Assembly: GCA_049968235.1 (NCBI GenBank)
Contig: JBMFRC010000001.1
Coordinates: forward strand, 1-64,000
Reading direction: 5' to 3'
DNA from: Candidatus Hydrogenedens sp.
Lineage (GTDB): Bacteria > Hydrogenedentota > Hydrogenedentia > Hydrogenedentales > Hydrogenedentaceae
Length of the DNA stretch: 64,000 nucleotides
Part shown: piece after piece, positions 12,623-46,371 of the stretch
Layout: the number at the start of each line of letters is the position of its first letter
Position numbering within the stretch: position 1 is the stretch's first letter
The notes under the pieces: model-generated
Database searches by the model: none
What the model saw: the letters and a program-made list of their open reading frames with translations, nothing else
What the model was told of the DNA's origin: nothing
Made by a program: the position numbers and the translations under genes

Positions 12623-13987
12623 TTGAATGAAATAAGTAAGTATATGAATAACCCATTGGTGCGTGTTCTGGTATTAAATTGGAATGGAATGGAACATCTG
12701 GAAGAATGTTTTTCGTCCCTGATAAAGGGGTGTCAACGCGAGGATGTAGAATTTGTCCTTTTAGATAATGCCAGTACGGATGAATCCGTATCTTTTGTGC
12801 AGGAACAGTTCGGTAATGACCCGCGTGTAGTTACGGAATGTCTGGATAAAAACTATGGCTGGGCAGGAGGAAATAATCGGGGAATTATAAAATCTATTGA
12901 GAAGAGGGCAAAATATATTTTTCTACTGAATAATGACACAAAAGTAGAGCAGAATTGTATAGAAAATCTAATTGAAATGTCTGAGGCGAACCCGCATATT
13001 GGTGGGCTGGCTCCCAAAATGCTTCTTTATAGCCAGCCCTGGCTTTTAAACTCGATAGGATTGGAATGTTCTATCATAGGCTCTGCATGGGACCGTGGCT
13101 TGGGTCGCGTAAATAATGAACGATGGGATAATATAGAAGAAGTCATCGGTATTTGTGGTGGTGCAATGTGGTTAAGGTCAGATGTGTTAATACAAACGGG
13201 ATATTTACCTGAGGAATTCTCGATTTACCTTGATGACCTGGATTTGTGTCTACGTATCTGGGATGCGGGCTATCGAATATTGACCTGCCCAAACGCTATT
13301 GTCCGGCATAAGTTCAGTGCTACATGGGAAAGTTCACCCGACAAGGGAAAACATAAGTATTTTTTGAATACTCGAAATCGCTTTTACCTTATGGAACGAA
13401 ATTTTCCTATTAGTAAAATTTTTAGTATATTGTTATGGACAAAATGGGGAGAAATAAAATCTATAGGAAATGCTATTCGAAAAACAGAATTCTGGCGAAT
13501 ACAAAAACATATTCAGTCATGGATTGAAGCAGTTCGATATATCCCTGAAGCAAGGAGATATAGAAAGGCAAAAACAATCAAAACTCAGGAATATAGCAAT
13601 TTGCCTCCTTATTGGCATTTGATACAGAAAAAAATCTTGTTTTGTCCAGAGATTGAACTTCCTGTAAAAGGCTGGTATAAACCCGTTTCTATCTCTGGGG
13701 AAAAATTTTTTCCCATGAGCAAGTATGCAGAACTAAAACATAGAGGAGGGGCTTTTTCTTTTATATGTGGGAATATTACTCCAGAAAAAACTGAGATTCA
13801 AATTGATATAAAGTATAATGGGGAACTCGTAGGCAATATTAGAACAACAGAATTAAAAAAATATTCTTTTGAGTTGCCTGCAGGGATAATAATATTTGAA
13901 GCAAAACATATATTGGAAATGGAACAAACGGGGGAGCCTTATGATATAGGAGGTTGGTTCCAGTTTGAAAATTTACTTCCTTTATAG
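12623..13987 (+). CDS. Family 2 glycosyltransferase
   Basis: VLVLNWNGMEHLEECFSSL...LLDNASTDESV and DDLDLCLR are GT2 (GT-A) motifs with a DxD-like element. Confidence 0.7.
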   Translation: MNEISKYMNNPLVRVLVLNWNGMEHLEECFSSLIKGCQREDVEFVLLDNASTDESVSFVQEQFGNDPRVVTECLDKNYGWAGGNNRGIIKSIEKRAKYIFLLNNDTKVEQNCIENLIEMSEANPHIGGLAPKMLLYSQPWLLNSIGLECSIIGSAWDRGLGRVNNERWDNIEEVIGICGGAMWLRSDVLIQTGYLPEEFSIYLDDLDLCLRIWDAGYRILTCPNAIVRHKFSATWESSPDKGKHKYFLNTRNRFYLMERNFPISKIFSILLWTKWGEIKSIGNAIRKTEFWRIQKHIQSWIEAVRYIPEARRYRKAKTIKTQEYSNLPPYWHLIQKKILFCPEIELPVKGWYKPVSISGEKFFPMSKYAELKHRGGAFSFICGNITPEKTEIQIDIKYNGELVGNIRTTELKKYSFELPAGIIIFEAKHILEMEQTGEPYDIGGWFQFENLLPL

Positions 13988-14036: not shown

Positions 14037-16400
14037 ATGCTGAAAGAAAATAAAAAATCACAGACTTTGAAAAATCTCTTCTGGCGGAATTTTTTCCTTT
14101 TTTTTATTCTTATCATCGTAATCGGTGTTTCATGGTGGTTTGGTTCAATCGCGGGGAAATATTCGCTCCATGATTTGATAACGAAACCATTACCACCAGT
14201 TCCACCCAAAGAAGCAATGAAAGAAAAAGAGCAAAATAAAGAGGAGACTCCTCCTTTTTTTATATATGTGGGCGGAGAGCCTTGTAGCGAAGTCGCTCAA
14301 AAAGAGTTTATGCATGCAAAGGAAGCAGGAATTGTTAATTATATTATCGATGTTCCATTTCCATGGAGGGGTTCGGATGATTTACCGGAATTGTTTCGTA
14401 TTCTTCAATGTATTAATGATGTTGACCCTCATGGGAAGTATTGGATTTATCTGGACCTGAATCCTCCTAATTTCTGGTTTTCAGGTAAGAAATCCGCCAA
14501 TATGATAGTTAATGGAGAGATTCAACCTTATGCTTGTTTTAATGCTCCATCGTGGAAAAAAGCAATTGAAGAATCTTTTGTTTTGTTAATAAGTAGTCTT
14601 CGCTCTTCCAAAATTGGTGGACAGGTAGGTGGATATATTTTAGGATTTCTAAAGAATCGCTGGTGGATTTCGCCGGGATTGGACGAGTCGGAGTTTTCTC
14701 TAACAAATTTTAATAAGTGGATACAAAATCATTATCCCTCAGCAGAAGAGCGTATTCAATTATTCGGAGCGGATACACTTGAACCTTCACTTATTCTTGA
14801 TGGATTGCACAAAGAAACCGGGACATCCTCCAACTACTTAAATCCTGTGGAACATCGTATTTTAATAAACTACCGTCGTTTTTTCAATGAGAGTCTGGCA
14901 AATAGTATTGGTTTCTGTGCCATGACATTAAGGCAGTTACTTCAGGATACAAAAGCAAAGATTTATATTCCGTATGGGCTGAATATGGAGACAGCAGATA
15001 CAGCAACAGGGCAATTTTCATTAGATTCAATAGTAGAAAGTGATGTAGATGGCTTTATTCTTCCCATATCTTACATAAATCGGGGATTGGGTGAATCGGG
15101 AGGACCCTCAGGGACAATAGAAACTTTATCTCTTCATGGGAAAGATGTCTTACTTTTTGATGATACCCGAACCGGTATTTCCTTTGATGCTTCAACTCGA
15201 CAAATAGTACGGGTAAAAGGAGTGCGGGCAGAAAATATTTTTGCGGTTCAAAAACGAAATATGGGGTTGGCTCTTGTTCATAATGCTGGTTTGATATGGA
15301 CAGACCCGGAAGGGAAGGGGTGGCTTTTGGATGTAGAACAATGGGATTTGTTTGAAAAAATGATACAAATTTCAACTCGAATTCTAACTCAGGAGGGTAA
15401 ATTGCAAAAACTGCGACTTCAACCCCGAAAGATACATGGAGTCCCTAATGAAAATGCAATAACGGAAGACCATATACTACCCCGTTTGCAGGTAGGAAAG
15501 TTCAACACCGAGGAAGTGCAAACAGAATATCCTCCTGTAGTTCCGTCAGAAAATATTCTCTGGGAACCTCTGGCTATGATTATTGATGAGCGGGCAATGC
15601 ACCTGCTTAGCCCAAAAGGGATTGAATTCTACTCGTCAAGTATCGCTAATGTTCGTGACCAACTTTTGAAAGTGGGTTTGCCCATAGAATTTTATCTCAT
15701 GCAAGATTTACTTGATGAACGTATTCCAAAAAAACTGATTTATTTTATTTTCAATCTTTATCCACCAACGGAAAAAGAAATTCAAACTTTACATCGTATT
15801 TTTGAAACAGATAAATCCATAGTAATATGGTATTACCTGCCTACATGGGGAATAGATACCGATAATGCAGAACTTGTTCGCCAGTTAACACAAATTGACG
15901 CAAAACTATTTGACACAGATATATCTGCAGGTTCTGTTTTAGAACTGGAAGGGAGATGGATAAATAAAGGAGACGCTTTTGGTGAACCTATATCTGTTTC
16001 GCCATTATTTTATATCGAAGATGAAAATGCAGATGTAATTGCTCGATACCAATCAAACGGTAAACCCAGTATTGCAGTTAAAACCATAAATGATAAGTGG
16101 GTATCTGTTTTTTATGCAGAACCTACCGTAAATCACCTTGCTATGCGTGAAATTCTTTCTATTTTAGAGGTGCCTACTGCTATTGCAGAAGGAAGTGTTG
16201 CGACACAGGATACACTTCTGGTTGGAACAAATATGCTGGTTCTACATACCAAAGGAATTGGAGACCGTATCTTACAATTCAACCAATTTTTGAACATTGA
16301 AAATTTATTTCAACCTGAACAAAAATGGTTTGAACGGGAAACACTTCTTCTATCTTTGGGTAGTGGAGAAACCGTATTTTTATTTTTCCAACCCCAATAA
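14037..16400 (+). CDS. Hypothetical 787-aa membrane-anchored protein (N-terminal TM, large extracytoplasmic domain)
   Basis: Single N-terminal hydrophobic helix FFLFFILIIVIGVSWWF. No recognisable motif. Sits between the GT2 and the oxidoreductase. Confidence 0.4.
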   Translation: MLKENKKSQTLKNLFWRNFFLFFILIIVIGVSWWFGSIAGKYSLHDLITKPLPPVPPKEAMKEKEQNKEETPPFFIYVGGEPCSEVAQKEFMHAKEAGIVNYIIDVPFPWRGSDDLPELFRILQCINDVDPHGKYWIYLDLNPPNFWFSGKKSANMIVNGEIQPYACFNAPSWKKAIEESFVLLISSLRSSKIGGQVGGYILGFLKNRWWISPGLDESEFSLTNFNKWIQNHYPSAEERIQLFGADTLEPSLILDGLHKETGTSSNYLNPVEHRILINYRRFFNESLANSIGFCAMTLRQLLQDTKAKIYIPYGLNMETADTATGQFSLDSIVESDVDGFILPISYINRGLGESGGPSGTIETLSLHGKDVLLFDDTRTGISFDASTRQIVRVKGVRAENIFAVQKRNMGLALVHNAGLIWTDPEGKGWLLDVEQWDLFEKMIQISTRILTQEGKLQKLRLQPRKIHGVPNENAITEDHILPRLQVGKFNTEEVQTEYPPVVPSENILWEPLAMIIDERAMHLLSPKGIEFYSSSIANVRDQLLKVGLPIEFYLMQDLLDERIPKKLIYFIFNLYPPTEKEIQTLHRIFETDKSIVIWYYLPTWGIDTDNAELVRQLTQIDAKLFDTDISAGSVLELEGRWINKGDAFGEPISVSPLFYIEDENADVIARYQSNGKPSIAVKTINDKWVSVFYAEPTVNHLAMREILSILEVPTAIAEGSVATQDTLLVGTNMLVLHTKGIGDRILQFNQFLNIENLFQPEQKWFERETLLLSLGSGETVFLFFQPQ

Positions 16401-21353: not shown

Positions 21354-21530
21354 TCTTATATCTCCAATCCCTTTCTAAATTCATTGCGGAATTTTAAATA
21401 TCTTCAAAAATTAACTGTGGAAATTTCCACACTTTTTAGACAAATCATATGTAAATTATATTGAACAAATCTTTGTAAGTGACTTGCTATCAGAATATTA
21501 AAACAAAATAATTCTGCAATGGCATAATAA

Positions 21531-22007
21531 TTGCTAAAAATCATTGTAATTTGGAGTTACAAAATGTATCGACAAAAGATGATATTAAAAAAGAGTAAGA
21601 AAAAACAACAAGGCATGACACTAATAGAACTAATGTTTGCTGCAGGGGTATTAGCGTTTGTGCTAAGTATGATATTTACATCTGTTATAACTGTGGGTAT
21701 GAATCGTGAAATACATACACAACGATTGCAGGCAGAAAGTGTAGTTAATGAGATATTAGACCAAATTAGTCGTTCAGATAGTTCTCAGATATTGAATTTT
21801 CTTCCTGATATACCTAATTTACCGGGGACAAATGCGGTATTACGCGTGGAAGCGATAACAGGTGATGGAACACCCATTACATTACCCAGTCCTAATGCGA
21901 ATATCCATTTACCCAATCCTCTAGAAGTGCGTGTAACATTGACGTGGCAAACAACAGACCGTGGATATACAATAACCAAGAGAGGGTCCACTTATGTATC
22001 CAATTAA
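21531..22007 (+). CDS. Prepilin-type (type IV pilin / T2SS pseudopilin-like) protein
   Basis: Class III signal KKQQG|MTLIELMFAAGVLAFVLSMIF with G-1 and E+5. Probable start at 21564 (SD ggag). Confidence 0.7.
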   Translation: MLKIIVIWSYKMYRQKMILKKSKKKQQGMTLIELMFAAGVLAFVLSMIFTSVITVGMNREIHTQRLQAESVVNEILDQISRSDSSQILNFLPDIPNLPGTNAVLRVEAITGDGTPITLPSPNANIHLPNPLEVRVTLTWQTTDRGYTITKRGSTYVSN

Positions 22008-22620
22008 ACGCAATATACTTGGTATGACATTAATTGAATTAACCATGACAGTAGGTTTGATGGCAATTGTTATGGGAGCGTTATTTACACTTTCGTTGAG
22101 CCTGACCGATACAGTTCAAAATTATAACGCAACTATGACAGCGACAGACGAGGCACGTCGAGCATTACAAATTTTAATCCCTCGTTTATCTCATGCATCC
22201 CGGCAGACTGTAAATTGGAATGAATTACCGGGAACTGTCCTTCGATTTCGTATGCCAACGGATTTGGATGGGAATGGTACATGTGTAGATGTAAGTGGAA
22301 ACCTTGAATTAGGAAATGTTGTAACTGTACAACGGGATACACAGGACGCCAATAATGATGGGATGACAGATAATCAATTGGTCATGATTCAGGGAAATAA
22401 TGTTACTGTTCTGGCAAATCACTTATTTAATCCTCCTGAAGTGGGAAACCCGGATGGCACTTTTAATGATACCAATGGAAATGGGAGGTTAGACCGTGGC
22501 TTCTTTATTACTATAGATAATAACACTATTCAGGTTCATATTGATACGGTAGGTCAATCTCGTCGTGGACATCAGTTTGTAATAAATGTAGAAGAGCGTG
22601 TGGTTCCAAGAAATCCATAA
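21994..22620 (+). CDS. Prepilin-type pseudopilin-like protein 2
   Basis: NILG|MTLIELTMTVGLMAIVMGALF has G-1 and E+5. Overlaps the upstream gene by 14 nt. Confidence 0.7.
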   Translation: MYPIKRNILGMTLIELTMTVGLMAIVMGALFTLSLSLTDTVQNYNATMTATDEARRALQILIPRLSHASRQTVNWNELPGTVLRFRMPTDLDGNGTCVDVSGNLELGNVVTVQRDTQDANNDGMTDNQLVMIQGNNVTVLANHLFNPPEVGNPDGTFNDTNGNGRLDRGFFITIDNNTIQVHIDTVGQSRRGHQFVINVEERVVPRNP

Positions 22621-22635
22621 GAGAGGTGTTTTATT

Positions 22636-24372
22636 ATGATGATCAGACAGAATATATATTTCACTCGTCCTTGCGGAAAAGAAGAGGGTATGGCTATGAT
22701 TATTGCTCTGATTTTTGTAACGGTAGCCATTGCATTGCTCAGCATCCTCTCTGTACAAGTAATTAACCAAAATCTGCAACAAAATAGATATTCCGATTTT
22801 CGGGATGCATTCTGGGGAGTTGTTTCTGCTGTTCAGGAAAGTAAAAGTTCGATAGAAATAGGGGGGAATGGTTTGGTCGGTGTTGAAAACTGGACTCCTT
22901 CGTATAATGCAAATAATGAACCTATTCTTCCTTCCTTTGATAGTCCTTCGGTTACACCTCGCACATTACCCTCTGACCCAACGGTTCAATATTTTGCAAT
23001 AGCAGTCCCCTGGGAGAATGATAATTTTGATAATAATGGAGATGGTCTCGTTGATGATATATCCGAAGTGGATATGGTTACTATATATGCATTGGCGAAA
23101 AAAAATGGGACAATACGCCGATTAGAGGTAATAACGGATAGCACTGATGTAAATGTATGGAGAAATGCTATATTTGCGGGTGACGGACAAACCGGAAATG
23201 TAGTAAATGGAAATGTCAGTATTCATGGTTCAGTTCATGTGTTAGGGAACAATCTTTTACCTGGAAATCCCGCCATAACCGCATTGGACCTGAGTGGAAC
23301 TGCTTTGATACATAACAATTATCAGGGAGTTCCCGGTATTTTGCGACAACGGGTTCCTCCTTTGCCTACGACAGTGTTTGATGGAGAAACTGTAGATACT
23401 TTAAATGCTAAACTTCGTGTAAAACGCGGGATGGTCGGTTTATCCGGTAATTCTGAAATTGGAGAGCCTAATGTTCCAGGTAATAGTTGGAAAGAAACGA
23501 TGGATGGGACTTTTGTTAATGATGGATGGACTGGAAATCAGACTGTACCGGATGGAGGACGGGGAATTCCTAAAAATGTATTTAGTGATAATGGCTGGAA
23601 TGAACTTTATGATTTGGGGAATCGTGTTAGTTTTCCGAGACTTACAGATGATTGGCGAGAACCTGATGGTTCAAAAGTAATGAACCCGAATACGGGTAAT
23701 TGGTATAGTATGGAAGACTATTTTTCACAGGTGCTACTGGCTGACGCTGTTATTCCAAATGATGGTGTATTTAATGGAAATTTAGTATTAAATGCAAAAG
23801 GAAACAAAATCTTCTGGGATGCGACAACCGGAACTTACCTGAATGGGTCATTACCTGCATCACTACCCCCGAATGACCATGATTATATCTGGTTTGACCC
23901 AGCAACCAATGTTTTAAGAATTAATGGACAAATCCGTATAAATGGCAATCTTACATTTACCGGCGGTGGAAATGACCGTACTATTAACTATAGTGGTAGA
24001 GCTGCATTACTTGTTTATGGAGATATTACTATAGATTCAGATCTTGTTACATGTAATAACGGGGTTCCCAATAATTTTCAGAATAGTTTTCCGGTTAATA
24101 ACATTATAGGACTTATGAGTTCTAAAAACATGTACATTGGAAACACTGCACAGTGCGACATTATGGGTGCTTTTTATGCTCAAAATATGATAAAAATTTC
24201 AAAGCAAACGGATGTAATGGGAACCATTGTTTCAAGTTATTTTGACATGGGTTCACAGGTCCCGAATATTTATCAAGTCCCGGCTCTGGCAGATAATCTT
24301 CCTTATGGAATGATTGCTAATTATCCAATCACTACTTTACAGCAAGTTGGTTGGCGTGAATTGGGACTGTAA
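22636..24372 (+). CDS. Large (578 aa) PilX/GspK-like minor pseudopilin
   Basis: KEEG|MAMIIALIFVTVAIALLSIL is a prepilin-like hydrophobic N-terminus without E+5, as in GspK/PilX. A large Asn/Gly-rich globular domain follows. Confidence 0.5.
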   Translation: MMIRQNIYFTRPCGKEEGMAMIIALIFVTVAIALLSILSVQVINQNLQQNRYSDFRDAFWGVVSAVQESKSSIEIGGNGLVGVENWTPSYNANNEPILPSFDSPSVTPRTLPSDPTVQYFAIAVPWENDNFDNNGDGLVDDISEVDMVTIYALAKKNGTIRRLEVITDSTDVNVWRNAIFAGDGQTGNVVNGNVSIHGSVHVLGNNLLPGNPAITALDLSGTALIHNNYQGVPGILRQRVPPLPTTVFDGETVDTLNAKLRVKRGMVGLSGNSEIGEPNVPGNSWKETMDGTFVNDGWTGNQTVPDGGRGIPKNVFSDNGWNELYDLGNRVSFPRLTDDWREPDGSKVMNPNTGNWYSMEDYFSQVLLADAVIPNDGVFNGNLVLNAKGNKIFWDATTGTYLNGSLPASLPPNDHDYIWFDPATNVLRINGQIRINGNLTFTGGGNDRTINYSGRAALLVYGDITIDSDLVTCNNGVPNNFQNSFPVNNIIGLMSSKNMYIGNTAQCDIMGAFYAQNMIKISKQTDVMGTIVSSYFDMGSQVPNIYQVPALADNLPYGMIANYPITTLQQVGWRELGL

Positions 24373-24391
24373 TTTAGAAAGGAACTGTAGA

Positions 24392-24934
24392 ATGAGTAAA
24401 TATACAAAAAACATATCTTTTTTATCGTATTTATTATTCTTTGCTGCTGTTGTATTAGTTGCTTTAGGAATTGTTGGTGTTATTTGGGGTAAGACAGGTA
24501 GTGTGGAGGCAGAAGTTCAGGAAAGTGCAATAAAAACCTTAAATACCACACCGACATTAACAGCGGATATAGAAGAGCAATCTGTCAAAGAACCCCCAAA
24601 AGACTTAAATAATCCTGACCAATTAATTGAATATTATCACTCTCAATTAGAACAAAATCCTCAGGACCCGAATACACCAGCATATTTGTGTGCAATGGGG
24701 AATCTTTATAAAATGAAGAAAATGGATTGTGCCAGTGCTATTCCTTATTATGAAAAAGTTATTATTGATTATCCCGATTGGGAAGGGATTAAATCTATTT
24801 ATCCTGAGTTAGCATCCTGTTATGAAGAAGTAAATGACTATAAGGGGAAAATCTGGATACACGAAGAAATGATGAAAAGGTTTCCGGAGGATTCGCAAGA
24901 ATATCTTTTCGCAAAGAAAGCACTCGGTTTATAA
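24392..24934 (+). CDS. Membrane-anchored TPR-like protein
   Basis: N-terminal TM (FLSYLLFFAAVVLVALGIVGVIWG), then a TPR-like segment (AYLCAMGNLYKMKKMDCASAIPYYEKVIIDYP). Confidence 0.5.
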   Translation: MSKYTKNISFLSYLLFFAAVVLVALGIVGVIWGKTGSVEAEVQESAIKTLNTTPTLTADIEEQSVKEPPKDLNNPDQLIEYYHSQLEQNPQDPNTPAYLCAMGNLYKMKKMDCASAIPYYEKVIIDYPDWEGIKSIYPELASCYEEVNDYKGKIWIHEEMMKRFPEDSQEYLFAKKALGL

Positions 24935-25467: not shown

Positions 25468-28400
25468 TTACTTGCTTACATTAAGAACCAAATTTACGGT
25501 GCCATTCACTGCATTACTTATAATCGGTATGATAGGATTAAAGACATCGATTTGCGTTTTGTTAACTGTAATAGTAACTACATCTTCTGTTCCACCTCCG
25601 GCATAAGGAGCAACAGAACCGGCTAATTTCGAGAAGGTATAACCTGATGCTGGTAACGACGCACGGTCGAAAGACCACGAAAGAGTAGATTGCCCTGTAT
25701 TTCGTATAATAAATGATTGCCCTTCTACTGTATTAGGGGAATTGAAGTTTAGCACAGTCGGAATAACTGTAATTTCAGGGGGTAATATTGTGCAATAGAC
25801 ATAAACGAATCGTTCTATAGGATTATTGAATATGGAATCGAAAGAGAAATGTAGTATGCCTTGGTATGTTCCAGGAAGTAATTCTCCGCGTTCAATGGGT
25901 ATATGTAATTCGTAAGGAATTCCATTCTCGTAGATAATACGGTCTTCCTCATCAGGTTTTACAATATTTCCGAAAAATTCGCCTGTTAAGGCTTCTACAT
26001 CCCAATATAAGCCAACGGATGTTGGACGATGACTACCACCATCGTTGTAGATGTTCACTACTAAATCGTATGTATCATCTGGAAGCGTTATAACATAATT
26101 AGCATCCATAGTAGGTTGCGTTTCTAATCGAGGATATGGATTGGATGGAGCCAGATTGGGTTGTTCTTTCACATCAAATAAATTCGGGTGTGTAAAATAT
26201 TTTGATTCAGCATTTGCCGTTATTTGCGGGAAAACCACATCAAATTGTAATTGGAAGGGCTGGGTTACATTTTCAAAGTGTAAGACACACAGAGAACCAA
26301 ATGCTCCATAATCCAGTGGTTGATTATTCGGGGAAGTAAACTGGAGTATACTGCCCAGCTGATTAAAATTCCAATCAGGAATTAAACCGCCTTCTGCAAA
26401 TGTAGGTTGACGCACAGACATAGTCATGGAGGGGTTTCCACCTACAGAACCCACAGAGAATTGGAGGGAGTTGATGTTGCGTTGAATATAATCTGCATAA
26501 ACAACAATATCAACGGTCTGTGAGTTAGTGTCAATACCATCGGTTCGTAATTTGATTTGTCCCAAACGCACATCATTGGCATATTTTAGTAAGTCAATTT
26601 GTGTATGTCCAAAAGCAGTAGATATAGCTCCCTGGTCGAGTAGACATGGAGATCCATCATCCGACGGAGAATTGAAGGCTAAGTCTATTTTCACAGTAGC
26701 ACCTGACATCTGGTTCAGGGCAACAAACTCAAAAAGCAGTTGGCTTTGAATATCTTTAGCAATTGAGCGGTCACATGGGTCATTGGAATCTGTTTCAAGC
26801 CAATCTGCTAATGTAGAAAATAATGGCTTTGAAATGGGCTTTCCTACATTATCTACAGATTCGGTGATTTTATTCCGTGTAGAATACAAATGGCCTCCTG
26901 TTTCCTCTATCAATTGGACTAATATATTTTTATTTACATTTTCACCCCAGCAGAGGAAGAAAGGTCTTACACGTGAACCTTTTAGAAAATCTACCACAGG
27001 TGATATTTGTCCCGGTGGAGTGGTTAACTTTCCATCGGTTATTACTAACATAATACGGTCATCGGATACATCAAAAGGAATATGGTCCCCATCAGCATCC
27101 AGCATTTCTAAAGCACCGCTGGTTATTGCAGGCAGTAATGCAGTGGCACCATGGTCAATAATGTCCATACTTAACAATCTATTTTTTACAATATCTTTAT
27201 TAAAGGTAAAGATAGGTTCACCATCATTATTTACTAACATACGAACTGAACTGCCAAACCATTCACGTTCATTGAATATCCCGATTCCTATTTGATAATT
27301 ATCGGGAATATCATCAATAAATGCGGGCAATGTTCGGATATATAACTCTCGAATAGGGTCATTGGCTCCTGCGATTTCCTGTTCTTCTAAAGAACTGGCG
27401 GATTGGAACATACTTCCCGAAGCATCCAACAAGATAAGGATAGTGCCTTTGTGTTGAACCAATCGTTCTGATTTTACCATTGGAATGAGGAATCGACTGG
27501 ATTCCTGAATATCTAAAGGCAGGTCATCTTCTGTAATTATGAATTTGTCTGCAAGTGTAGGAAGAAACGCCTCGGGCAGAGATATGGCGCGTTGCTGAAC
27601 ATCACGAAGTGTCATAACATATCTCATTAGCGAGGGTATGCGTAGATTTGGTGGAGCGGTTTCAACTGTGAGTGTAGGAGCAGAAGCAGTTATGGTAATA
27701 AAAATGGGTGTAACTGTTTCATCGATTACTTTTACACCATTTACAGTCTTTCTACCTATTATTTTTATCTGTCCTGAGGAATTTGCTCCATCCAGACCTT
27801 CACGGTCAATAGAAACGGATATTTCCTTCCACTCTTTAATGGGTCCCTCTATACCATAGCTGAGACCTGATTCTGGAAATACCGATATCCATTCTTTATT
27901 GGGTATCAATAGGAAATCCAGTGCAGTCCCCGGATCACCCAAATTTGCGACATCAAAGGTTTTTAATATTTCACCGGGACCGAAATTCAGGGCACCGGGT
28001 TGTGCTCCAATAATTACTTTTTTAGGCACTTGGATTTCAATGATAATTTTTACGACAGGATTTTCAGGGTCGCTTGTTTGTATAAATAATTCATAGACAT
28101 CACCTAAATAAGTTAAAGTATCTCTACTTACAGCCACTTTTATTTTCTGTTCTTTTCCTTTTCCCAAAGCACCTTGAGTAGGATTAATGCTGGTTATCCA
28201 ACCGGGGATATCTGTGGTTACAATTTTCCATTCTAAAGTACCCTTACCGGTATTTTGTATAACGAACTCTTGTTCGTTTTCTTCAATTGCGAAGTTAAGA
28301 ACGGGTATTCCATTATTATCTGTTCCCTCACCCACTATAGTAACTTCAGGTATTTGTGGAACAGACATACTGGTCTGGACAGTAACGGGGGTTAGATTTG

Positions 28401-29982
28401 TTGATGATTGTACAACAGTTCCTTTTACATTGAATGAATATTGATAGGAGGGTCCTTCGGATTCATTTGCCAATGCCCTGTTAACTTTTACTTTCAAGGT
28501 AGCGGTTTGAGAACCACTTACCTGACCGGAGGCAATTCCTTGATTGTTTACGGGTATAATACTTAACCATGATGGGAATTGTGTTGTGTCAATTTCCCAT
28601 GCAATCGTTTCTTCTCCATCGTTCCAGAGAGCCAGTGTCTCTTCCGCACGAGTTTCACCAAAATTAATCTGTGTGGGAAGGACAACCAATTTCGGGGCTC
28701 GAGATGCTTCCATTTGCACATTAATAACAGAAGAACCCCAACTGGAATTTATTGTAATATTCCCCTGGTATTCGCCAGGTTGCAATATTGTTGGATTTGC
28801 TTCAACAGTAATGGTTTGAGTTCCGCCCGCATCAATATTCCCAGTGGTAGGAGTAATTTTCAGCCAATTTGAGGTATCCGGAATATCTGATGTCCACCGC
28901 CATGCAACAGGGGCAGAATTGTTGATTGTAAAGGTCTGCGTTTGTATCTCACGAATCTTTCCAAAATTAATTAAAGCAGGATTTACCGTTAATGCCCGTG
29001 TTCGCATCCGAACGTTTACAGTAATAGCATAATTGGTGGTGGTATCCCGTATTTGAAGGGTACCTGAATAATCATTTGCAGGGAGGTTTGCAGGGTTTAC
29101 GATAACTGGGACATCTATAGATTGGGCAGGAGGAATATTAAATTGTGGATTTTGAACAGATAGCCATAATTGCGCATCCTGGGATACTCCTATTTGTATA
29201 GATACCTGTTGTGTCCCCAAATTGGAAACTTTTATTATCTGTTGTGCTTGCTGTTCGATTAAACCAAACTGCATCTCATTTGGCGTTACTTGTAATGCGG
29301 AAACTTCCATTGATATGGGAAGGGAAATTTCTTGAGAACCCGCAGTTATTCTTACTGTAGTTTGATAAATACCAACGGCTAAACCACTTCGATTTACGCG
29401 AAAATTCAAAGTTACATTTTGACCGGCAGGGACTTCTCCACTTACAGGTGTTACAGACAGCCATCCTGCGTCTGATGGAATTGTTACTCTCCAATTCGTT
29501 TTAATTGTACTTTGGTTTACTATGTTTGCTTCTAACTCTGTAGCAACCGTTCCGAAATTCAGAGAAAGAGGGCTAACGGATATATTGACAGTTCCTGGTT
29601 TGGTAATACTTACAGTTATCTTCTTCGTATCTCCGACACTTTTAATTATCACCTCTCCTAAACTGGTTCCATCAGAAATACTCGAGCGGTCTGCTATTAA
29701 ATCTAATTGTTGGACTTTTCCTCCGGATAAGGTACCTTTTATTTTGCTGGCTGTGGTTACACCTCCATCATTAGATAATTTCAACCAGATGTCTGATGCC
29801 TCTGCTTCCCATGACCAGTTCCCACTCTGGCTAAATACAATGCGAACAGTTTCTCGCACAGAGGTTTCACCAAAGGTTACCGTTTCTGGTTCTACATAAA
29901 AATGAACCCATGGACAACCTGTTAGTGTTAAAACAATTAAAATGGGAGCAATAATTTTTATTATTACCATCTGTTGCCTCAT
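25468..29982 (-). CDS. Giant (1504 aa) surface lipoprotein with multiple Ig-like (DUF1573/ASH-like) repeats and a central vWA (MIDAS) domain
   Basis: Lipobox LTLTGC. Repeated ..L.FG.V..G....F.I.N.G...L.W.. units. vWA with ILLDASGSM (DxSxS). Paralogous to 30027-33863. Confidence 0.7.
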   Translation of the reverse strand: MRQQMVIIKIIAPILIVLTLTGCPWVHFYVEPETVTFGETSVRETVRIVFSQSGNWSWEAEASDIWLKLSNDGGVTTASKIKGTLSGGKVQQLDLIADRSSISDGTSLGEVIIKSVGDTKKITVSITKPGTVNISVSPLSLNFGTVATELEANIVNQSTIKTNWRVTIPSDAGWLSVTPVSGEVPAGQNVTLNFRVNRSGLAVGIYQTTVRITAGSQEISLPISMEVSALQVTPNEMQFGLIEQQAQQIIKVSNLGTQQVSIQIGVSQDAQLWLSVQNPQFNIPPAQSIDVPVIVNPANLPANDYSGTLQIRDTTTNYAITVNVRMRTRALTVNPALINFGKIREIQTQTFTINNSAPVAWRWTSDIPDTSNWLKITPTTGNIDAGGTQTITVEANPTILQPGEYQGNITINSSWGSSVINVQMEASRAPKLVVLPTQINFGETRAEETLALWNDGEETIAWEIDTTQFPSWLSIIPVNNQGIASGQVSGSQTATLKVKVNRALANESEGPSYQYSFNVKGTVVQSSTNLTPVTVQTSMSVPQIPEVTIVGEGTDNNGIPVLNFAIEENEQEFVIQNTGKGTLEWKIVTTDIPGWITSINPTQGALGKGKEQKIKVAVSRDTLTYLGDVYELFIQTSDPENPVVKIIIEIQVPKKVIIGAQPGALNFGPGEILKTFDVANLGDPGTALDFLLIPNKEWISVFPESGLSYGIEGPIKEWKEISVSIDREGLDGANSSGQIKIIGRKTVNGVKVIDETVTPIFITITASAPTLTVETAPPNLRIPSLMRYVMTLRDVQQRAISLPEAFLPTLADKFIITEDDLPLDIQESSRFLIPMVKSERLVQHKGTILILLDASGSMFQSASSLEEQEIAGANDPIRELYIRTLPAFIDDIPDNYQIGIGIFNEREWFGSSVRMLVNNDGEPIFTFNKDIVKNRLLSMDIIDHGATALLPAITSGALEMLDADGDHIPFDVSDDRIMLVITDGKLTTPPGQISPVVDFLKGSRVRPFFLCWGENVNKNILVQLIEETGGHLYSTRNKITESVDNVGKPISKPLFSTLADWLETDSNDPCDRSIAKDIQSQLLFEFVALNQMSGATVKIDLAFNSPSDDGSPCLLDQGAISTAFGHTQIDLLKYANDVRLGQIKLRTDGIDTNSQTVDIVVYADYIQRNINSLQFSVGSVGGNPSMTMSVRQPTFAEGGLIPDWNFNQLGSILQFTSPNNQPLDYGAFGSLCVLHFENVTQPFQLQFDVVFPQITANAESKYFTHPNLFDVKEQPNLAPSNPYPRLETQPTMDANYVITLPDDTYDLVVNIYNDGGSHRPTSVGLYWDVEALTGEFFGNIVKPDEEDRIIYENGIPYELHIPIERGELLPGTYQGILHFSFDSIFNNPIERFVYVYCTILPPEITVIPTVLNFNSPNTVEGQSFIIRNTGQSTLSWSFDRASLPASGYTFSKLAGSVAPYAGGGTEDVVTITVNKTQIDVFNPIIPIISNAVNGTVNLVLNVSK

Positions 29983-30026: not shown

Positions 30027-33000
30027 TTAATTTGCCACTGTAATGTCTATCTTTTCGGAAGCAAATATATCTGTATTAATAATTACATTTCCTGAAGTCA
30101 TAGTTCCGGGTATAAGACCTGTTCGGTCTATAAATAAAGTAACTGTTTCCGTTTCTCCCGGAGACAATTCGGAATCGGGAGTATTGGAATTACCGGATAA
30201 TCCGTATTTAATATCTGTAACCCATGAGGGATACGATGTTATTTGCCAATTGAATGTATCCAATCGGTTATTATGAACGATAAATGTAATGGAATTGTTC
30301 CCTACGGGAATGTCCAATCGTGTTGGAACTATAAATTTTCCGGGAATGTTCTTATCGTTTGGAGCAGGGTCCTGGAAATCAGTAATACCATCTTTATCGT
30401 TATCCCAGGCACCTGTACTTTCTGGGTCAAAGGTTAATCCTGCAAGTCCTGCGATTGTTGTAGATGGTCCAGCGACTTTTGCCGATATAGTAATGGGGAG
30501 GAAGCCATCAATATAAGTAGGGCCACCGGGATAAAGGAAATACTTGGTGCGTGAAGATTGCCCTATACTTCCGATGTATACCAGAGATTCGTTATCAACA
30601 CGCATGGCAAGATTTAAGACAGGGTCTGTATCTCCAAAAGATTGCACATACGCATCCAAACCTGTGATTGTAATTTTAAATAGATTCCCGAAGGCACCAT
30701 ATTTGAATGCTTTATCTTCAGAATTTAATAGAAGGTATACACCATCACCTTCATTAATAAATCGCCAACCATCGTTGGTAGTGATAAGCCCATCTCCGGC
30801 TAATTCAACCTTCATATTTATATTGGCAAGGAGTAAGTTCCATTGTTCCGCTGTTACATTGTTCGGTTTTTGTAAGAAATAGCGTGTTCTGAGGAAATAG
30901 ACATCTCTTGGAATGTAATCTGCACGGACAAATACTTCTGCCTGCCAGGTTCTTTGAGTTGAATTGTTGGGGTCATTCCCGTAGAACAAACCCGAAGTAA
31001 CTAAAGATAATTGACCTGCACGGACATCGCCAATATAAGCAAATGCATCTTCTTCAAAAATACCTGTCAGGGAAGGTAAATTATTGCCGGGCTGATATTC
31101 AAATCGGATGGTATACTTAAAATCTTGTTGTTTAGGTGTGATATAGGTTAAAACAAGTTGATTTTTTAATTCCTCCCAGACACGACCTGCTGAGTCTTCT
31201 AATGCTAATGTTATATTTTCCCATGCTCCTGCGGTGGTTACGCCTTGTAATTTTATAATTCCATTTCCATCATTAGAAGTAATTGAAATTTGTTGATTTA
31301 GAACCACACCTGTAGTTGCAAGAGCAGGATTAGTTCTTATTGTAACTTTTGTAGAGCCACTGGCAGATATCGTGCCCTGAACAGGTTCTATATTGGTTAT
31401 CCATGCCGGCAAATTACGGGTATCTGCCTGCCAGCCTAAATTGTCTTTCCCTTCATTATAAATAAAGAAGGTCAAATCATTGGGTTGATTATTCATATCG
31501 GGACGAAGTACACAGGATTTTTGCCCACCTAACAGTTGAAGCAAACCATTTACATCATTGGCAATATATAAATGTCCACCAGTCTCTTTAGCAAGGGGTA
31601 TTAAATCTGCAGTATTCACAGAACCCCCAGAAGCAAATCCCAGAGGATACAAACGAATTAGATTATCGTGTGCTTTTTCTTTGATTTCACTTGCATCAAT
31701 AGTAGATGCATTATCCCATCCGTCTGAAATAAATATAATGGATTTTACATCTGCATCATCAAAAGGTAGTGGGTTCTTCAAATCTTCGGCAATTAGCCTA
31801 TCCACAGCCTCTGAAAGTGCATCATAAATATCCGAAGCACCCATTAAGTTGGGGGGAACATAGAAAGTTTCTAATGATTCTTTTAGTAATTCCTTATCCG
31901 TTGTAAAAGAACGGATTAATCGCCTTGTTTGCTGGCGGTCATTATGGAACATCAACGCAATTTGATAGGAAGCGGGTAGGTCGTAAATAAAATCAACAAC
32001 TGCCTTTTTCACTTTTTCTATTGCTTCTCCGGGCAACATGGGATTATCTTTATTATCCACACCTGCATAATACATACTGCCCGTATAATCTAATAGAATA
32101 ATCATATTCCCTTTGATATTTTCCGGTCCAGTAAGGAAATAATTTGTTTCCCTTAAATCTAAGGGAACGCTGTCTTCGGATATGGTAAGACTAATTTTGG
32201 AACGGTCTACAGGTGTAATTGTTGGGATGGCTCGTGAAGATGAATCACGTAATAAGAATACATATCGCATTACATAAGGCGGTCTACTACGATTCAAGGC
32301 TCCTTCGATTCGCAAGGGTTGTTTTTCGACACGCACTTTTATGGTTTTGGATTCAACACCATTTAATGGAGTTGCTTCATTAGGGAATATAATAGGATTA
32401 CGGTCCATTGCTTCTATTGTTATTGTGCGATATTCTATATCTTCTTGAAGATTATCCCGATTAATGGTAACTAAAATTTGCACACCGTCAATTAATAGAT
32501 TTAATTCGCTGGGATGATAGAAATCTTCAGGATTACCATCTTCACCATTGGCTCCTCCGACAACAGGTCGAACATCGGCAATTACAGGATTGGCTTTTCC
32601 TTCATCTTCATGCGTAATACGGAAATACAATTTTGAATCTCGTGGTCCAACATTAGCAATCCAAAATTCCTTTTGAACATCTTCCTGTCCAAAATCCAAT
32701 ACATCCAAAGGGATTATTTCCGGACGTGCAGTTGTTTCCTGAGGTGGCTCCGAAATGGCTATTTCGGGGAGGCTTATCTGTTCAATTTTAATTGGGATAA
32801 TTAACAAACAACTTCGTGTATCTATAATAATGGAATATTGTCCTGCTCCCAAAGTAATCTCTTTGGGCTTGGTAACAGTTACAGAAATCTCGACTTTGTC
32901 ATTTGGATTTACTATTCCTGCAGAAGGAGTAGCGGAAATACTATTGATAGCGATACCTGTAGGTCCGACTACCTGAAGATTCCATTGGGCTTGTGTGCTA

Positions 33001-33863
33001 CTGCTGTTTGTTAATGTCAGTTTGGACACGGGTAAATTCGTTGTGGTACTGTCGGATGTCAATGATTCTTTTGTTACAGACAGAACCAATTGGGCAGGTT
33101 CTGCAGTAAAACTAGTTTCAGGACATATCTTTGCAAAACGAAATTCAACCAATTGAATACCTAAGGAGGATTCAAAAAACAAACCAAAATCTGTCGACAC
33201 AGTTTCATCCCAACGGACTGTAACAGGGGTACTCCCTCCTGCGGGTAAAGTCCCTAAATTAGGAGATACAGAAATATCTGCGGGAATATTGGTTCGCACG
33301 GAAGAATTATTTAAATCAGGGACATATTTAACTGACCAGTTAAAACTCTCAGTACCTACATTTTGAACGGTTACAGTAGTTTCAGTTACATCTGGACGGA
33401 TAGTAAATACCTGAGGGGTTACAGATAAAGCACTGCTAACTTCCATCGAAACAGTTACAACCTGAGTTTTTCCCGAGACACGAAACTGAAGCCCTACATC
33501 TTTATATTCACCGGAAGATAAACCGTTTCTTGAGACTTTTGCATGAATTAACTGAGATGTAGATGTTTGCCCGGATGTTGGTTCCGCAGTTAACCACGGG
33601 ATATCTTGTTCTACCCATTGTTTTTGACTTGCATTCCAGACGACTTCAGTTAAAGACCATTTTATACCCAAACTACTTAATGACCTTATATACAAGGATT
33701 TTTCGATTGCTTTATCTCCAAAGGACAAAGCCTGTGGAGACACTTCAAATCCTGTTGTAAATGGACAACCACTTGCAAGAACAAGGATGAATATTAGCAA
33801 TCCGAGATGAAGTAAAAAAGTAATAGATGGATATTTCCGTTTATTCATAGGGGCTCCTTCCAA
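30027..33863 (-). CDS. Giant (1278 aa) surface lipoprotein, Ig-like repeats plus central vWA; paralog of 25468-29982
   Basis: Lipobox LVLASGC. vWA MIILLDYTGSMYY (DxTxS). Block ..RDSSSRAIPTITPVDRSKISLTISEDSVPLDLRE.. is colinear with ..RDVQQRAISLPEAF..FIITEDDLPLDIQE.. of the paralog. Confidence 0.7.
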   Translation of the reverse strand: MEGAPMNKRKYPSITFLLHLGLLIFILVLASGCPFTTGFEVSPQALSFGDKAIEKSLYIRSLSSLGIKWSLTEVVWNASQKQWVEQDIPWLTAEPTSGQTSTSQLIHAKVSRNGLSSGEYKDVGLQFRVSGKTQVVTVSMEVSSALSVTPQVFTIRPDVTETTVTVQNVGTESFNWSVKYVPDLNNSSVRTNIPADISVSPNLGTLPAGGSTPVTVRWDETVSTDFGLFFESSLGIQLVEFRFAKICPETSFTAEPAQLVLSVTKESLTSDSTTTNLPVSKLTLTNSSSTQAQWNLQVVGPTGIAINSISATPSAGIVNPNDKVEISVTVTKPKEITLGAGQYSIIIDTRSCLLIIPIKIEQISLPEIAISEPPQETTARPEIIPLDVLDFGQEDVQKEFWIANVGPRDSKLYFRITHEDEGKANPVIADVRPVVGGANGEDGNPEDFYHPSELNLLIDGVQILVTINRDNLQEDIEYRTITIEAMDRNPIIFPNEATPLNGVESKTIKVRVEKQPLRIEGALNRSRPPYVMRYVFLLRDSSSRAIPTITPVDRSKISLTISEDSVPLDLRETNYFLTGPENIKGNMIILLDYTGSMYYAGVDNKDNPMLPGEAIEKVKKAVVDFIYDLPASYQIALMFHNDRQQTRRLIRSFTTDKELLKESLETFYVPPNLMGASDIYDALSEAVDRLIAEDLKNPLPFDDADVKSIIFISDGWDNASTIDASEIKEKAHDNLIRLYPLGFASGGSVNTADLIPLAKETGGHLYIANDVNGLLQLLGGQKSCVLRPDMNNQPNDLTFFIYNEGKDNLGWQADTRNLPAWITNIEPVQGTISASGSTKVTIRTNPALATTGVVLNQQISITSNDGNGIIKLQGVTTAGAWENITLALEDSAGRVWEELKNQLVLTYITPKQQDFKYTIRFEYQPGNNLPSLTGIFEEDAFAYIGDVRAGQLSLVTSGLFYGNDPNNSTQRTWQAEVFVRADYIPRDVYFLRTRYFLQKPNNVTAEQWNLLLANINMKVELAGDGLITTNDGWRFINEGDGVYLLLNSEDKAFKYGAFGNLFKITITGLDAYVQSFGDTDPVLNLAMRVDNESLVYIGSIGQSSRTKYFLYPGGPTYIDGFLPITISAKVAGPSTTIAGLAGLTFDPESTGAWDNDKDGITDFQDPAPNDKNIPGKFIVPTRLDIPVGNNSITFIVHNNRLDTFNWQITSYPSWVTDIKYGLSGNSNTPDSELSPGETETVTLFIDRTGLIPGTMTSGNVIINTDIFASEKIDITVAN

Positions 33864-33912: not shown

Positions 33913-34512
33913 TTATTGTTTTGTTTTTTCAGCAAAGACCACATTAACCCCTGCATTTACAAGCGTTTGATAAACTGGTTCAAAATCCTTATAAAAACTA
34001 CCATCATCTTTTACTGTCCATTCAGGACTTAATGTTACGGTATCACCGGGACCCAAACCGCCGGCATTCACATTGGCTATTAATGGTGTCCAATCTCGAA
34101 TATCATTGTCCGGACCGGATATATCCAGATATTCCAGATATTGCATTCCTGCAATAGGTGTTATGTCTGTAATATAATTATTCCCTAAATCCAACCAGAC
34201 CAAATTTTTTAAATCGCGTAAAGGGGAGATGCTTATAATATTATTATCTCTTAAGTCTAATTTAACCAGAGAGGTGCAATACTCAAGCCCTCGTAAATCT
34301 GTAATACCCATACCCCGGGCTGTTAATTCCGTTATAGAATCCAATTCACCCGTACAGAGAATAAAGAAGGGTTTACCGATTGCACTACGAATGGCAGTTT
34401 CCAATGCCCTATCCGGGAACATAATTGATGAGCCCTGTAAGAAACAACACCCCGAAATTGAACTTATCAGGACACAAATACCTATTAAGTTGAATATTAT
34501 TTTCATTCTCAT
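33913..34512 (-). CDS. Lipoprotein with leucine-rich repeats (LRR)
   Basis: Lipobox ISGCC. LRR units LVKLDLRDNNIISISPLRDLKNLVWLDLGNNYITDITPIAGMQYLEYLDISG. Confidence 0.7.
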   Translation of the reverse strand: MRMKIIFNLIGICVLISSISGCCFLQGSSIMFPDRALETAIRSAIGKPFFILCTGELDSITELTARGMGITDLRGLEYCTSLVKLDLRDNNIISISPLRDLKNLVWLDLGNNYITDITPIAGMQYLEYLDISGPDNDIRDWTPLIANVNAGGLGPGDTVTLSPEWTVKDDGSFYKDFEPVYQTLVNAGVNVVFAEKTKQ

Positions 34513-46001: not shown

Positions 46002-46031
46002 AAAAATTGTTCAGAGGTCTCGTGTATTTTT

Positions 46032-46358: not shown

Positions 46359-46371
46359 AGGTTGATTTGTG

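What the first reader, a model, noticed from the sequence alone, without database searches (positions are those of the whole stretch)
21564..24934. Orphan minor-pseudopilin cluster (two prepilins plus a 578-aa GspK/PilX-like protein plus TPR protein) without assembly machinery
Two proteins with textbook class III signals (G|MTLIEL, E+5), then a large prepilin-like protein lacking E+5 (a GspK/PilX hallmark), with 14-nt and 15-nt overlaps and gaps indicating one transcript, then a TM-TPR protein. No pilB/pilC/pilM-Q, gspD-F or prepilin peptidase lies within at least 20 kb on either side. The giant vWA lipoproteins lie convergent. This may be the priming or tip subcomplex of a T4P/T2SS-like fibre whose core genes are elsewhere.
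Basis: partly seen in the sequence, partly recalled or inferred. Interest (0 to 1): 0.5.

Follow-up and report, generated by a model that had tools for sequence, protein, structure and literature searches.

The report
ComZ-like pilus-tip gene cassette
This four-gene cluster in a Candidatus Hydrogenedens genome most likely encodes the starter and tip complex of a type IV pilus, capped by a large relative of the Thermus DNA-uptake pilin ComZ, so it is a known kind of system found in poorly studied phyla, with one unreported extra partner gene.

Summary
Window 21564-24934 (+) carries four tightly packed genes: two prepilins with G|MTLIEL signals, a 578-aa protein with a conserved Gly-1 but no Glu+5, and a membrane-anchored TPR protein. 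No pilus or secretion machinery lies anywhere in the 64-kb window.

The cassette is syntenic across Hydrogenedentota and, without the TPR gene, in Omnitrophota, always with unrelated neighbours. PilT-type pilus ATPases occur elsewhere in these genomes, also standing alone. The "orphan" state therefore reflects scattered pilus genes. PilB, PilC, PilD and PilQ were not located.

The same solenoid-capped architecture is already described for ComZ (2019) and for cyanobacterial PilX (2026 preprint). New here are the two phyla, the complete lack of database annotation, the conserved TPR partner, and duplicated or paralogous cassettes. Whether the tip binds DNA or acts as an adhesin or plug is unresolved. 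The family is strongly acidic and ComZ Lys233 is not conserved. Verdict: new member of a known kind, modest interest.

The parts
21564..22007 (+). pil1: small prepilin (147 aa; 131 aa from Gly-1). Class III signal KKQQG|MTLIELMFAAG with E+5. Putative GspI/PilV/TTHA1218-type minor pilin.
   Evidence: ORF. PF07963 at 28.7 bits, above the gathering cutoff. G-1, L+3 and E+5 invariant in 24 orthologues. The I-type assignment is inferred only from size and gene order. No Pfam or PDB sequence match to the globular part.
21994..22620 (+). pil2: prepilin (208 aa; 199 aa from Gly-1). Signal ILG|MTLIELTM with E+5. GspJ/PilW-type minor pilin with three conserved DxDxNG loops that look Ca-binding (residues 90, 118, 159).
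22636..24372 (+). comZ-like tip (cap) pilin, 578 aa. Leader plus G18|MAMIIAL (no E+5), alpha1 helix 16-74, small pilin sheet (strands 118-171), beta-solenoid about 179-546, and a closing strand 566-576. A conserved DNNGDGLVDD loop sits at residue 132.
24392..24934 (+). TM-TPR partner (180 aa): one N-terminal hydrophobic anchor (residues about 14-32, no lipobox), a variable linker, and about 100 aa of TPR repeats with a conserved C-terminal motif (…A.GNLY…DY..A…YE….YP…CYE…M..FP.DSQEY).
   Evidence: ORF. Weak TPR and YbgF-like hits in the window copy. 25 of 27 orthologues match TPR_14. The profile matches consensus TPR at E=5e-21, and BamD/YfiO and CpoB are the nearest natural structures. 58 of 60 orthologues have the N-terminal hydrophobic segment and only 2 have a lipobox-like motif. 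It follows the comZ-like gene in 63 of 71 loci with room downstream.
21354..21563 (+). AT-rich (25% GC) 210-bp intergenic region upstream of pil1. Presumed promoter region of the four-gene operon.
   Evidence: Sequence. The promoter scan is not above chance, so this is inference from gene arrangement only.

Best explanation
The cluster is a self-contained 'core minor pilin' operon of a type IV(a) pilus. pil1 (GspI/PilV-like by inference), pil2 (GspJ/PilW-like) and the 578-aa ComZ/PilX/GspK-like subunit are made as inner-membrane prepilins and cleaved after the conserved Gly by a prepilin peptidase encoded elsewhere. They then assemble through their N-terminal helices into a trimer that primes polymerisation of the major pilin on a PilB/PilC/PilMNO platform encoded elsewhere. 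Because the large subunit lacks Glu+5 and carries a bulky beta-solenoid, it can only sit at the top, so it ends up as the cap of the fibre. The solenoid is the working surface or plug at the tip. I judge an adhesin or plug role somewhat more likely than a ComZ-style DNA receptor. The TM-TPR protein exposes its TPR domain to the periplasm and probably acts as a dedicated holder or assembly factor for the giant tip subunit. Shown here: gene structure, conserved signals, homology and fold of two of the subunits, phylum-wide synteny, absence of adjacent machinery, and the presence of PilT in the phylum. Inferred: processing, trimer formation, tip location, the ligand, and the role of the TPR protein.
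Against: PilB, PilC, PilD, PilQ and a major pilin were not located in this genome or any relative, because the tools reach only +/-10 kb around a query. pil1's fold was not tested. There is no GspH/FimU-type adaptor in the cassette. No interaction or localisation data exist. The role of the TPR protein has no direct precedent that I could find. L002 and L057 keep the comZ-like and TPR genes without upstream prepilins, so the module is not strictly indivisible.
Confidence: 0.8

Rival explanations
1. This is specifically a competence (DNA-uptake) pilus tip. The ComZ-like protein is the extracellular DNA receptor, as proposed for Thermus ComZ/PilA2, and the cassette serves natural transformation.
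For: The only significant solved homologue is ComZ, which binds dsDNA and is required for transformation. The neighbouring-gene pattern matches the Thermus competence pilin cluster. In Omnitrophota locus L082 an endonuclease/exonuclease/phosphatase-family gene follows the cassette, and the gene after the cassette in L080 is probably its counterpart, though it was not scanned.
Against: Identity to ComZ is only 22%. ComZ Lys233 aligns to a non-conserved position, Pro in the window protein, and Lys98 lies outside the alignable region. The family is strongly acidic (mean pI 4.4; mean net charge -32, range -10 to -55). The same architecture in cyanobacteria splits into competence and motility/EPS-adhesion types. 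No comEA, comEC or dprA lies nearby.
Confidence: 0.2
2. The three pilins are the GspI-GspJ-GspK tip of a type II secretion pseudopilus, not of a surface pilus.
For: pil2 and the pilin domain of the large protein resemble T2SS pseudopilins most closely among classical structures. The gene order is I-J-K. One JGI record labels an orthologue 'type II secretory pathway pseudopilin PulG'.
Against: GspK carries an alpha-helical insert, whereas this protein has the ComZ-type beta-solenoid. The characterised solenoid-bearing relatives I found (ComZ and cyanobacterial PilX) belong to T4aP systems. No gspD, gspE, gspF, gspG or gspH lies adjacent in 82 loci. The phylum encodes PilT retraction ATPases typical of T4aP. 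Thermus minor pilins also look 'T2SS-like' yet serve T4P.
Confidence: 0.1
3. The proteins are not processed pilins at all. They are ordinary bitopic membrane or secreted proteins whose N-termini resemble class III signals by chance, or a decaying remnant.
For: No prepilin peptidase was found in the window or in 1.3 Mb of related loci, though the motif screen was crude. pil2 falls below the Pfam cutoff in the window copy.
Against: G-1 and E+5 are invariant across two phyla. The large protein is 51-91% identical at full length in more than 100 clusters, which indicates strong purifying selection. The folds are pilin folds. The cassettes are intact and even duplicated.
Confidence: 0.02

Closest known systems
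ComZ with PilA2/PilA3 of Thermus thermophilus (HB27 TT_C0855-comZ; HB8 TTHA1218-1219-1220), PDB 6QVI, 6QVF, 5G23, 5G25
   Different: Only 22% identity. ComZ Lys233, a DNA-contact residue, is not conserved. The family here is very acidic. There is no PilA1-type fourth pilin and no adjacent major pilin (pilA4). A TM-TPR gene follows instead. The hosts are mesophilic, uncultured phyla.
Cyanobacterial PilX subfamilies (PilX1-3, PilA12, HpsA) in PilV/PilW/PilX core priming complexes (bioRxiv 10.64898/2026.02.12.705559)
   Same: The same concept: a terminal, Glu5-less PilX with a bulky ice-binding-like beta-solenoid between the penultimate and last strands, proposed to act as a tip plug or adhesin in place of PilY1. 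There are several alternative minor-pilin sets per genome, encoded away from the motor.
   Different: No direct sequence comparison was made here. No TPR partner is reported there. The cyanobacterial sets include a FimU-like adaptor.
T2SS GspI-GspJ-GspK tip complex (PDB 3CI0; XcpVWX 5VTM)
   Same: Gene order, a J-type fold for pil2, a K-type pilin domain lacking Glu5, and the priming or cap logic.
   Different: GspK has an alpha-helical insert at a different position in the sheet. gsp pseudopilin genes sit inside the gsp operon next to gspG/H and the machinery. Neither is the case here.
P. aeruginosa FimU-PilV-PilW-PilX-PilY1 and Myxococcus minor-pilin/PilY1 clusters
   Same: A separate operon of core minor pilins that primes T4aP and presents a large tip protein. 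Multiple alternative clusters per genome (from my own knowledge of the field, and the introduction quoted).
   Different: There the bulky tip element is a separate non-pilin protein (PilY1). Here it is fused into the cap pilin.
Tapirins of Caldicellulosiruptor (PDB 4WA0, 6N2B, 6N2C)
   Different: The solved tapirin domains match only the solenoid part of the model, and no pilin domain is described for them. The similarity is fold-level only.

Membership tests
Type IV pilin / pseudopilin superfamily (class III signal, PF07963/TIGR02532) | Short basic leader, Gly at -1, Glu at +5, then about 20 hydrophobic residues | tested here: met
   pil1 QQG|MTLIELMFAAGVLAFVL (PF07963 28.7 bits, above GA). 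pil2 ILG|MTLIELTMTVGLMAIV (17.1 bits in the window copy; 25/27 orthologues match). G-1, L+3 and E+5 are invariant in alignments A2 and A3.
Type IV pilin / pseudopilin superfamily | Pilin fold: long alpha1 helix packed on an antiparallel beta-sheet | tested here: met
Type IV pilin / pseudopilin superfamily | Cleavage and N-methylation by a prepilin peptidase (PilD/GspO) present in the genome | not testable with these tools
   No peptidase A24-like ORF in the window or in 1.3 Mb of related loci by a crude motif screen. The rest of the genome could not be read.
GspK / PilX terminal (cap) minor pilin | Prepilin-like N-terminus with Gly-1 but no Glu+5 | tested here: met
   G18 in 40/40 non-gapped sequences, A+2 in 42/42, and +5 is T/M/V/L/I, never E.
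GspK / PilX terminal (cap) minor pilin | Pilin-domain structure similar to GspK | tested here: met
GspK (T2SS) sensu stricto | Alpha-helical domain inserted between beta3 and beta4, and a gene inside a gsp operon | tested here: not met
   The insert is a beta-solenoid placed before the last strand. No gsp genes in the window or in 82 related loci.
ComZ / beta-solenoid PilX family | Detectable sequence homology to ComZ | tested here: met
   Profile A1 against PDB sequences: ComZ 6QVI is the only significant hit, E=1.3e-11, and both share the AIFAGaGQa…nG…i.G.V..G block.
ComZ / beta-solenoid PilX family | Whole-protein fold: pilin domain plus a triangular beta-solenoid inserted between the penultimate and last strands | tested here: met
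ComZ / beta-solenoid PilX family | Encoded next to GspI-like and GspJ-like minor pilins | tested here: met
   pil2 is J-like. pil1 is I-like only by size and position. The order is as in TTHA1218-1219-1220. Conserved in 63/77 loci.
ComZ as DNA receptor | DNA-contact lysines K98 and K233 and dsDNA binding | tested here: inconclusive
   K233 aligns to a variable position (Pro in the window protein). K98 lies just outside the alignment. The family is acidic, pI about 4.4. Binding itself cannot be tested here.
TPR pilotins and accessory lipoproteins of T4P/Tad (PilF, PilW, Tgl, TadD) | Lipoprotein signal (lipobox Cys) plus TPR repeats | tested here: not met
   TPR repeats are present, but only 2 of 60 orthologues have a lipobox-like motif, and 58 of 60 have a long N-terminal hydrophobic anchor instead.
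Verru_Chthon cassette (TIGR02596-TIGR02600) | Match to the cassette protein models above their cutoffs | tested here: not met
   pil2 scores 16 bits against TIGR02599 (cutoff 256.5), and only over the N-terminal 60 residues.

The most novel reading that the evidence does not exclude
Hydrogenedentota, and in simpler form Omnitrophota, may use interchangeable 'tip cartridges'. Each cartridge would hold two small prepilins, one giant Glu5-less cap pilin carrying a different effector domain, and a dedicated helical-repeat (TPR or HEAT) membrane-associated chaperone. The cartridges are duplicated in tandem or present as paralogous sets, so that one scattered pilus machine could be re-tipped for different targets such as particles, polysaccharide, prey or host cells, or DNA. 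The repeat-protein partner would then be a new class of periplasmic chaperone or loader for oversized tip pilins.
Probability: 0.25. Interest if true: 0.5.

Novelty: new member of a known kind. Interest (0 to 1): 0.3.

Why it matters
It gives a name and a testable role to a protein family that every source I saw labels only "hypothetical" and that matches no Pfam or NCBIfam model. The family comprises 627 clusters at 50% identity and is present across Hydrogenedentota and Omnitrophota. It also shows that the ComZ/solenoid-PilX style of pilus cap, so far described in Thermus and cyanobacteria, is much more widespread. This supports the idea that a solenoid fused into the cap pilin is a common alternative to PilY1. 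For these uncultured phyla it predicts functional, retractile type IV pili with a specialised tip, which is relevant to attachment, possible predatory or host-dependent lifestyles, or DNA uptake. The conserved TM-TPR partner, and the HEAT partner in the paralogous cassette, is the one feature without a described counterpart and is a tractable target for structure prediction and biochemistry.

Tried and rejected
1. Pfam and NCBIfam on the 578-aa protein found nothing. The identity came only from a family profile against PDB sequences and from fold search.

2. I guessed that the syntenic genes upstream of the Omnitrophota copy (L080, L082) were pilM/N/O-type machinery. Pfam showed they are the Rnf complex, so I rejected that.

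3. PDB profile searches for pil1 and pil2 gave only N-terminal-helix matches, or nothing. Pfam on all family members gave only N_methyl. pil2 needed a structure prediction.

I repeated it with proteins from a homology search.

5. A motif screen for prepilin peptidase in 1.3 Mb of loci found nothing, but the screen was crude.

6. Looking around five PilT genes for pilB/pilC/pilQ found none. PilT is solitary.

7. Literature searches for pili in Hydrogenedentes/Hydrogenedentota returned nothing relevant.

8. The promoter and terminator scan was at chance level.

9. Linkage with the VWA giants was rejected: 5 of 82 loci.

10. Verru_Chthon cassette membership was rejected.

11. The 767-aa protein of the paralogous cassette is not detectable with the ComZ-like profile or against PDB sequences.
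Full report
**Observation**

pil1 and pil2 overlap by 14 nt. The next two junctions are gaps of 15 and 19 nt, and each start has a purine-rich SD-like motif upstream. NCBI gene calls on two MAG contigs that encode an identical pil2 protein and the same neighbouring genes give the same 147/208/578/180-aa models.

pil1 passes the Pfam N_methyl threshold (28.7 bits against 21.2). pil2 is sub-threshold in this copy (17.1 bits), but 25 of 27 orthologues match, and NCBI names a 100%-identical protein 'PilW family protein'. A six-frame motif scan finds exactly these two prepilin ORFs in the 64 kb and no PilB/PilT-type Walker A motif. Pfam annotation of 38 of the 44 ORFs of 120 aa or more shows nucleoside transporters, LexA, peptidase M28, ceramidase-like proteins, porin O/P, a HAD hydrolase, AddAB, sugar-nucleotide enzymes, Cas1 fragments, trigger factor, Dxs, an Mrp antiporter, a thiolase and two giant Ig/BACON/VWA proteins. 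There is no pilus or secretion machinery.

**Organism and family**

The best matches to the 578-aa protein come from Candidatus Hydrogenedens and Hydrogenedentota. All 120 listed hits are 51-91% identical, nearly all at full length, and all are labelled 'hypothetical'. The GTDB species-representative scan found 201 loci encoding a relative. The closest named genome is Ca. Hydrogenedens terephthalaticus (90%), and Omnitrophota copies are 33-43% identical. An exhaustive profile search gives 627 clusters at 50% identity with E<=1e-3 and 202 with E<=1e-30. The distant members that carry a name are Omnitrophota 'hypothetical proteins'. Neither Pfam nor NCBIfam recognises the protein.

**Identity of the large protein**

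A profile of 42 family members searched against all PDB sequences hits one protein significantly: ComZ of Thermus thermophilus (6QVI), E=1.3e-11. The two share a block around AIFAGaGQa…nG…i.G.V..G.

The AlphaFold model is confident (pLDDT 85.5, pTM 0.77). It shows a 59-residue N-terminal helix, a small sheet (strands 118-171), a long beta-rich region (about 179-546) and a final strand 566-576. Foldseek returns ComZ alone (E=3.8e-15).

This is the pattern published for ComZ itself: a GspK-like pilin domain with an ice-binding-protein-like triangular solenoid inserted between the penultimate and last strands (PMC6561018).

At the N-terminus the family keeps Gly-1 (40/40) and Ala+2 (42/42) and never has Glu at +5. 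That is the hallmark of the terminal GspK/PilX subunit (background quoted).

**The small prepilins**

In T. thermophilus HB8, TTHA1218 is GspI-like, TTHA1219 is GspJ-like, and TTHA1220, the large pilin-like protein in the position of ComZ, follows them (PMC5131608). The Hydrogenedens order pil1-pil2-comZ-like therefore reproduces both the gsp I-J-K order and the Thermus order. pil1's I-type identity is inferred from its size (131 aa from Gly-1) and position only. Sequence methods found nothing for its globular part, and no prediction quota remained.

**Context in relatives**

Across 82 fetched loci containing 83 comZ-like genes, 63 of the 77 with room upstream have both pil1 and pil2 detectable by phmmer. 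Most of the rest have two divergent N_methyl prepilins found by motif or Pfam. The TPR gene follows in 63 of the 71 with room downstream, and it is absent mainly from the Omnitrophota-type loci.

The flanking genes differ completely between lineages: sigma-54 two-component genes, peptidase M28, the Rnf operon and others. Only one locus (L064) has a T2SSE ATPase within 10 kb, a 360-aa PilT-sized protein.

Using that protein as a query, PilT/PilU type-4a pilus ATPases turn out to be annotated across Hydrogenedentota, including Ca. Hydrogenedens sp.. One of them lies at 1.61 Mb on a 5,111,008-bp contig. That length equals OY782877.1, whose cassette is at 2.15 Mb (L017). I take the two to be the same chromosome on the basis of identical length, which would put the genes about 0.55 Mb apart. 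In five PilT contexts the gene stands alone.

The 'orphan' state of the cassette therefore reflects a general scattering of pilus genes in these genomes. Separate minor-pilin loci are also the case in Thermus and cyanobacteria. I could not locate PilB, PilC, PilD, PilQ or a major pilin.

**The TPR partner**

It is a real TPR protein. 25 of 27 members match TPR_14. The family profile matches consensus TPR at E=5e-21, and BamD/YfiO and CpoB/YbgF are the nearest natural structures. 58 of 60 orthologues have a long N-terminal hydrophobic segment and only 2 have a lipobox-like motif. It is therefore not a PilF/PilW/Tgl/TadD-type lipoprotein pilotin.

It stays with the comZ-like gene even where the two prepilins are missing upstream (L002, L057). 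A paralogous cassette found just downstream in L037, L040, L046, L048 and L063 has the same logic, with a different large protein and a HEAT-repeat protein in place of the TPR protein. This recurrent pairing of a giant cap pilin with a helical-repeat protein is why I propose a dedicated periplasmic holder or assembly factor. That is inference only. No such partner is mentioned in the ComZ discussion I read, and a term search of the cyanobacterial PilX preprint found none.

**Function of the tip**

ComZ binds dsDNA, and Lys98 and Lys233 contribute to binding. In the profile alignment Lys233 falls on a variable column (Pro in the window protein), and Lys98 is outside the aligned region. The family is strongly acidic: mean pI 4.4 and mean net charge -32 after removing the helix. 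The ComZ authors themselves found no basic patch, so this does not exclude DNA binding.

The solenoid also resembles cellulose-binding tapirins, which are encoded next to T4P loci (bioRxiv 10.1101/359786). The cyanobacterial study assigns solenoid-PilX proteins to both a competence set and a motility/EPS-adhesion set, and proposes a PilY1-like 'plug' role. I therefore favour a plug or adhesin role slightly over a DNA receptor and leave the ligand open.

Conserved DxDxDG/DxDxNG loops occur in the large protein (132-DNNGDGLVDD; D132, G137, D140 and E144 invariant) and three times in pil2. They suggest Ca2+ sites, and weak EF-hand (S100) matches point the same way. This was not tested.

**The VWA giants**

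The convergent 1504- and 1278-aa Ig/BACON/VWA proteins neighbour the cassette only in the three closest relatives. A different arrangement occurs in L023 and L026. That makes 5 of 82 loci. They are not part of the conserved module.

**Comparison and novelty**

In how it works and in membership, the large protein belongs with ComZ and the solenoid-bearing PilX proteins. The trio corresponds to the GspI/J/K = PilV/W/X priming complex. It fails the tests for a T2SS GspK in the strict sense (an alpha-helical insert and a gsp operon context), for lipoprotein TPR pilotins, and for the Verru_Chthon cassette.

The architecture and the concept are published (2016, 2019, 2026). This finding is therefore a new member of a known kind, extended to two candidate phyla where it is unannotated. 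The TM-TPR partner and the duplicated or paralogous cassettes are the only new features.

**Verdict**

Interest is modest (0.3).

Noticed in passing
L014 8870-16005; L015 15-6306; L016 8921-15887; L061 4968-12306: Complete pil1-pil2-comZ-like-TPR cassettes are duplicated in tandem in several Hydrogenedentota genomes (in L015 the second copy runs off the contig end), with the two comZ-like copies clearly diverged. This suggests alternative tips.
   Followed up: partly
L040 12761-17003 (also L037, L046, L048, L063 just downstream of the TPR gene): A paralogous cassette: two prepilins (G|VTLLELT, G|FTLVELV) plus, in L040, a 767-aa protein with a GspK/PilX-type N-terminus (QEGMALVLVVLAMIVV, no E+5) that has no Pfam or PDB sequence hit and is not found by the ComZ-like profile, and a 305-aa HEAT-repeat protein. 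It has the same layout as the main cassette, with a different cap and a different repeat partner.
   Followed up: partly
L082 3434-11943 and L080 (Omnitrophota): The Omnitrophota version of the cassette (two N_methyl prepilins plus the ComZ-like gene, no TPR gene) sits directly downstream of an Rnf (RnfCDGEA-like) operon. In L082 it is followed by an endonuclease/exonuclease/phosphatase-family gene.
   Followed up: partly
L064 7550-8629: The only locus with a pilus ATPase nearby: a 360-aa T2SSE (PilT-size) gene about 1 kb downstream of the cassette's TPR gene, flanked by 213-aa and 537-aa ORFs with no Pfam match.
   Followed up: partly
window 25468-29982 (-), 30027-33863 (-), 33913-34512 (-): Two giant proteins (1504 and 1278 aa) with multiple BACON_2/HYDIN-type Ig domains and a VWA domain, followed by a small internalin-like LRR protein, convergent with the cassette. 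Homologues sit next to the cassette only in very close relatives and, in another arrangement, in L023 and L026.
   Followed up: partly
window 46488-46862 and 46891-47340 (-), 47795-48643 (-): Cas1 is split into two ORFs (C-terminal and N-terminal fragments), next to a RAMP-family ORF. No CRISPR array was detected in 45100-49700. This looks like a decaying CRISPR-Cas remnant. The 46-48 kb interval also shows the highest GC skew in the window (0.33).
   Followed up: partly
window 9645-11099 and 11180-12547 (+), 12623-13987 (+), 14037-16400 (+): Two tandem paralogous proteins with weak neutral/alkaline-ceramidase N-terminal domain matches, followed by a GT2 glycosyltransferase and a 787-aa ORF with no Pfam match.
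   Followed up: no
L028 (DATKVG010000160.1); L007, L008, L018, L022, L034 and others: Contigs that carry a typical Hydrogenedentota cassette are deposited under other names ('Candidatus Bathyarchaeia archaeon', 'uncultured Nitrospirales/Nitrospiraceae bacterium', 'FCB group bacterium'). This probably reflects mis-binning or placeholder taxonomy in the public records.
   Followed up: no
L086 7712-8686 (-); also L006 13585 (-), L028 2034 (+), L030 3197 (-), L036 8629 (-) and 13381 (+): Hydrogenedentota loci also encode about 280-370-aa prepilin-like proteins with G/A|FTLIELLVVI signals. The L086 example carries N_methyl plus SBP_bac_10 (DUF1559). From my own knowledge this type is abundant in Planctomycetota/PVC. 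These proteins are further presumptive substrates for a prepilin peptidase.
   Followed up: no
window 22636-24372 residues 129-144; window 21994-22620 residues 90-99, 118-126, 159-167: Conserved DxDxDG/DxDxNG loops (EF-hand or thrombospondin-like) in both the cap pilin and the GspJ-like pilin, with weak S100 EF-hand matches in the PDB search. This suggests Ca2+ sites in the tip complex.
   Followed up: partly
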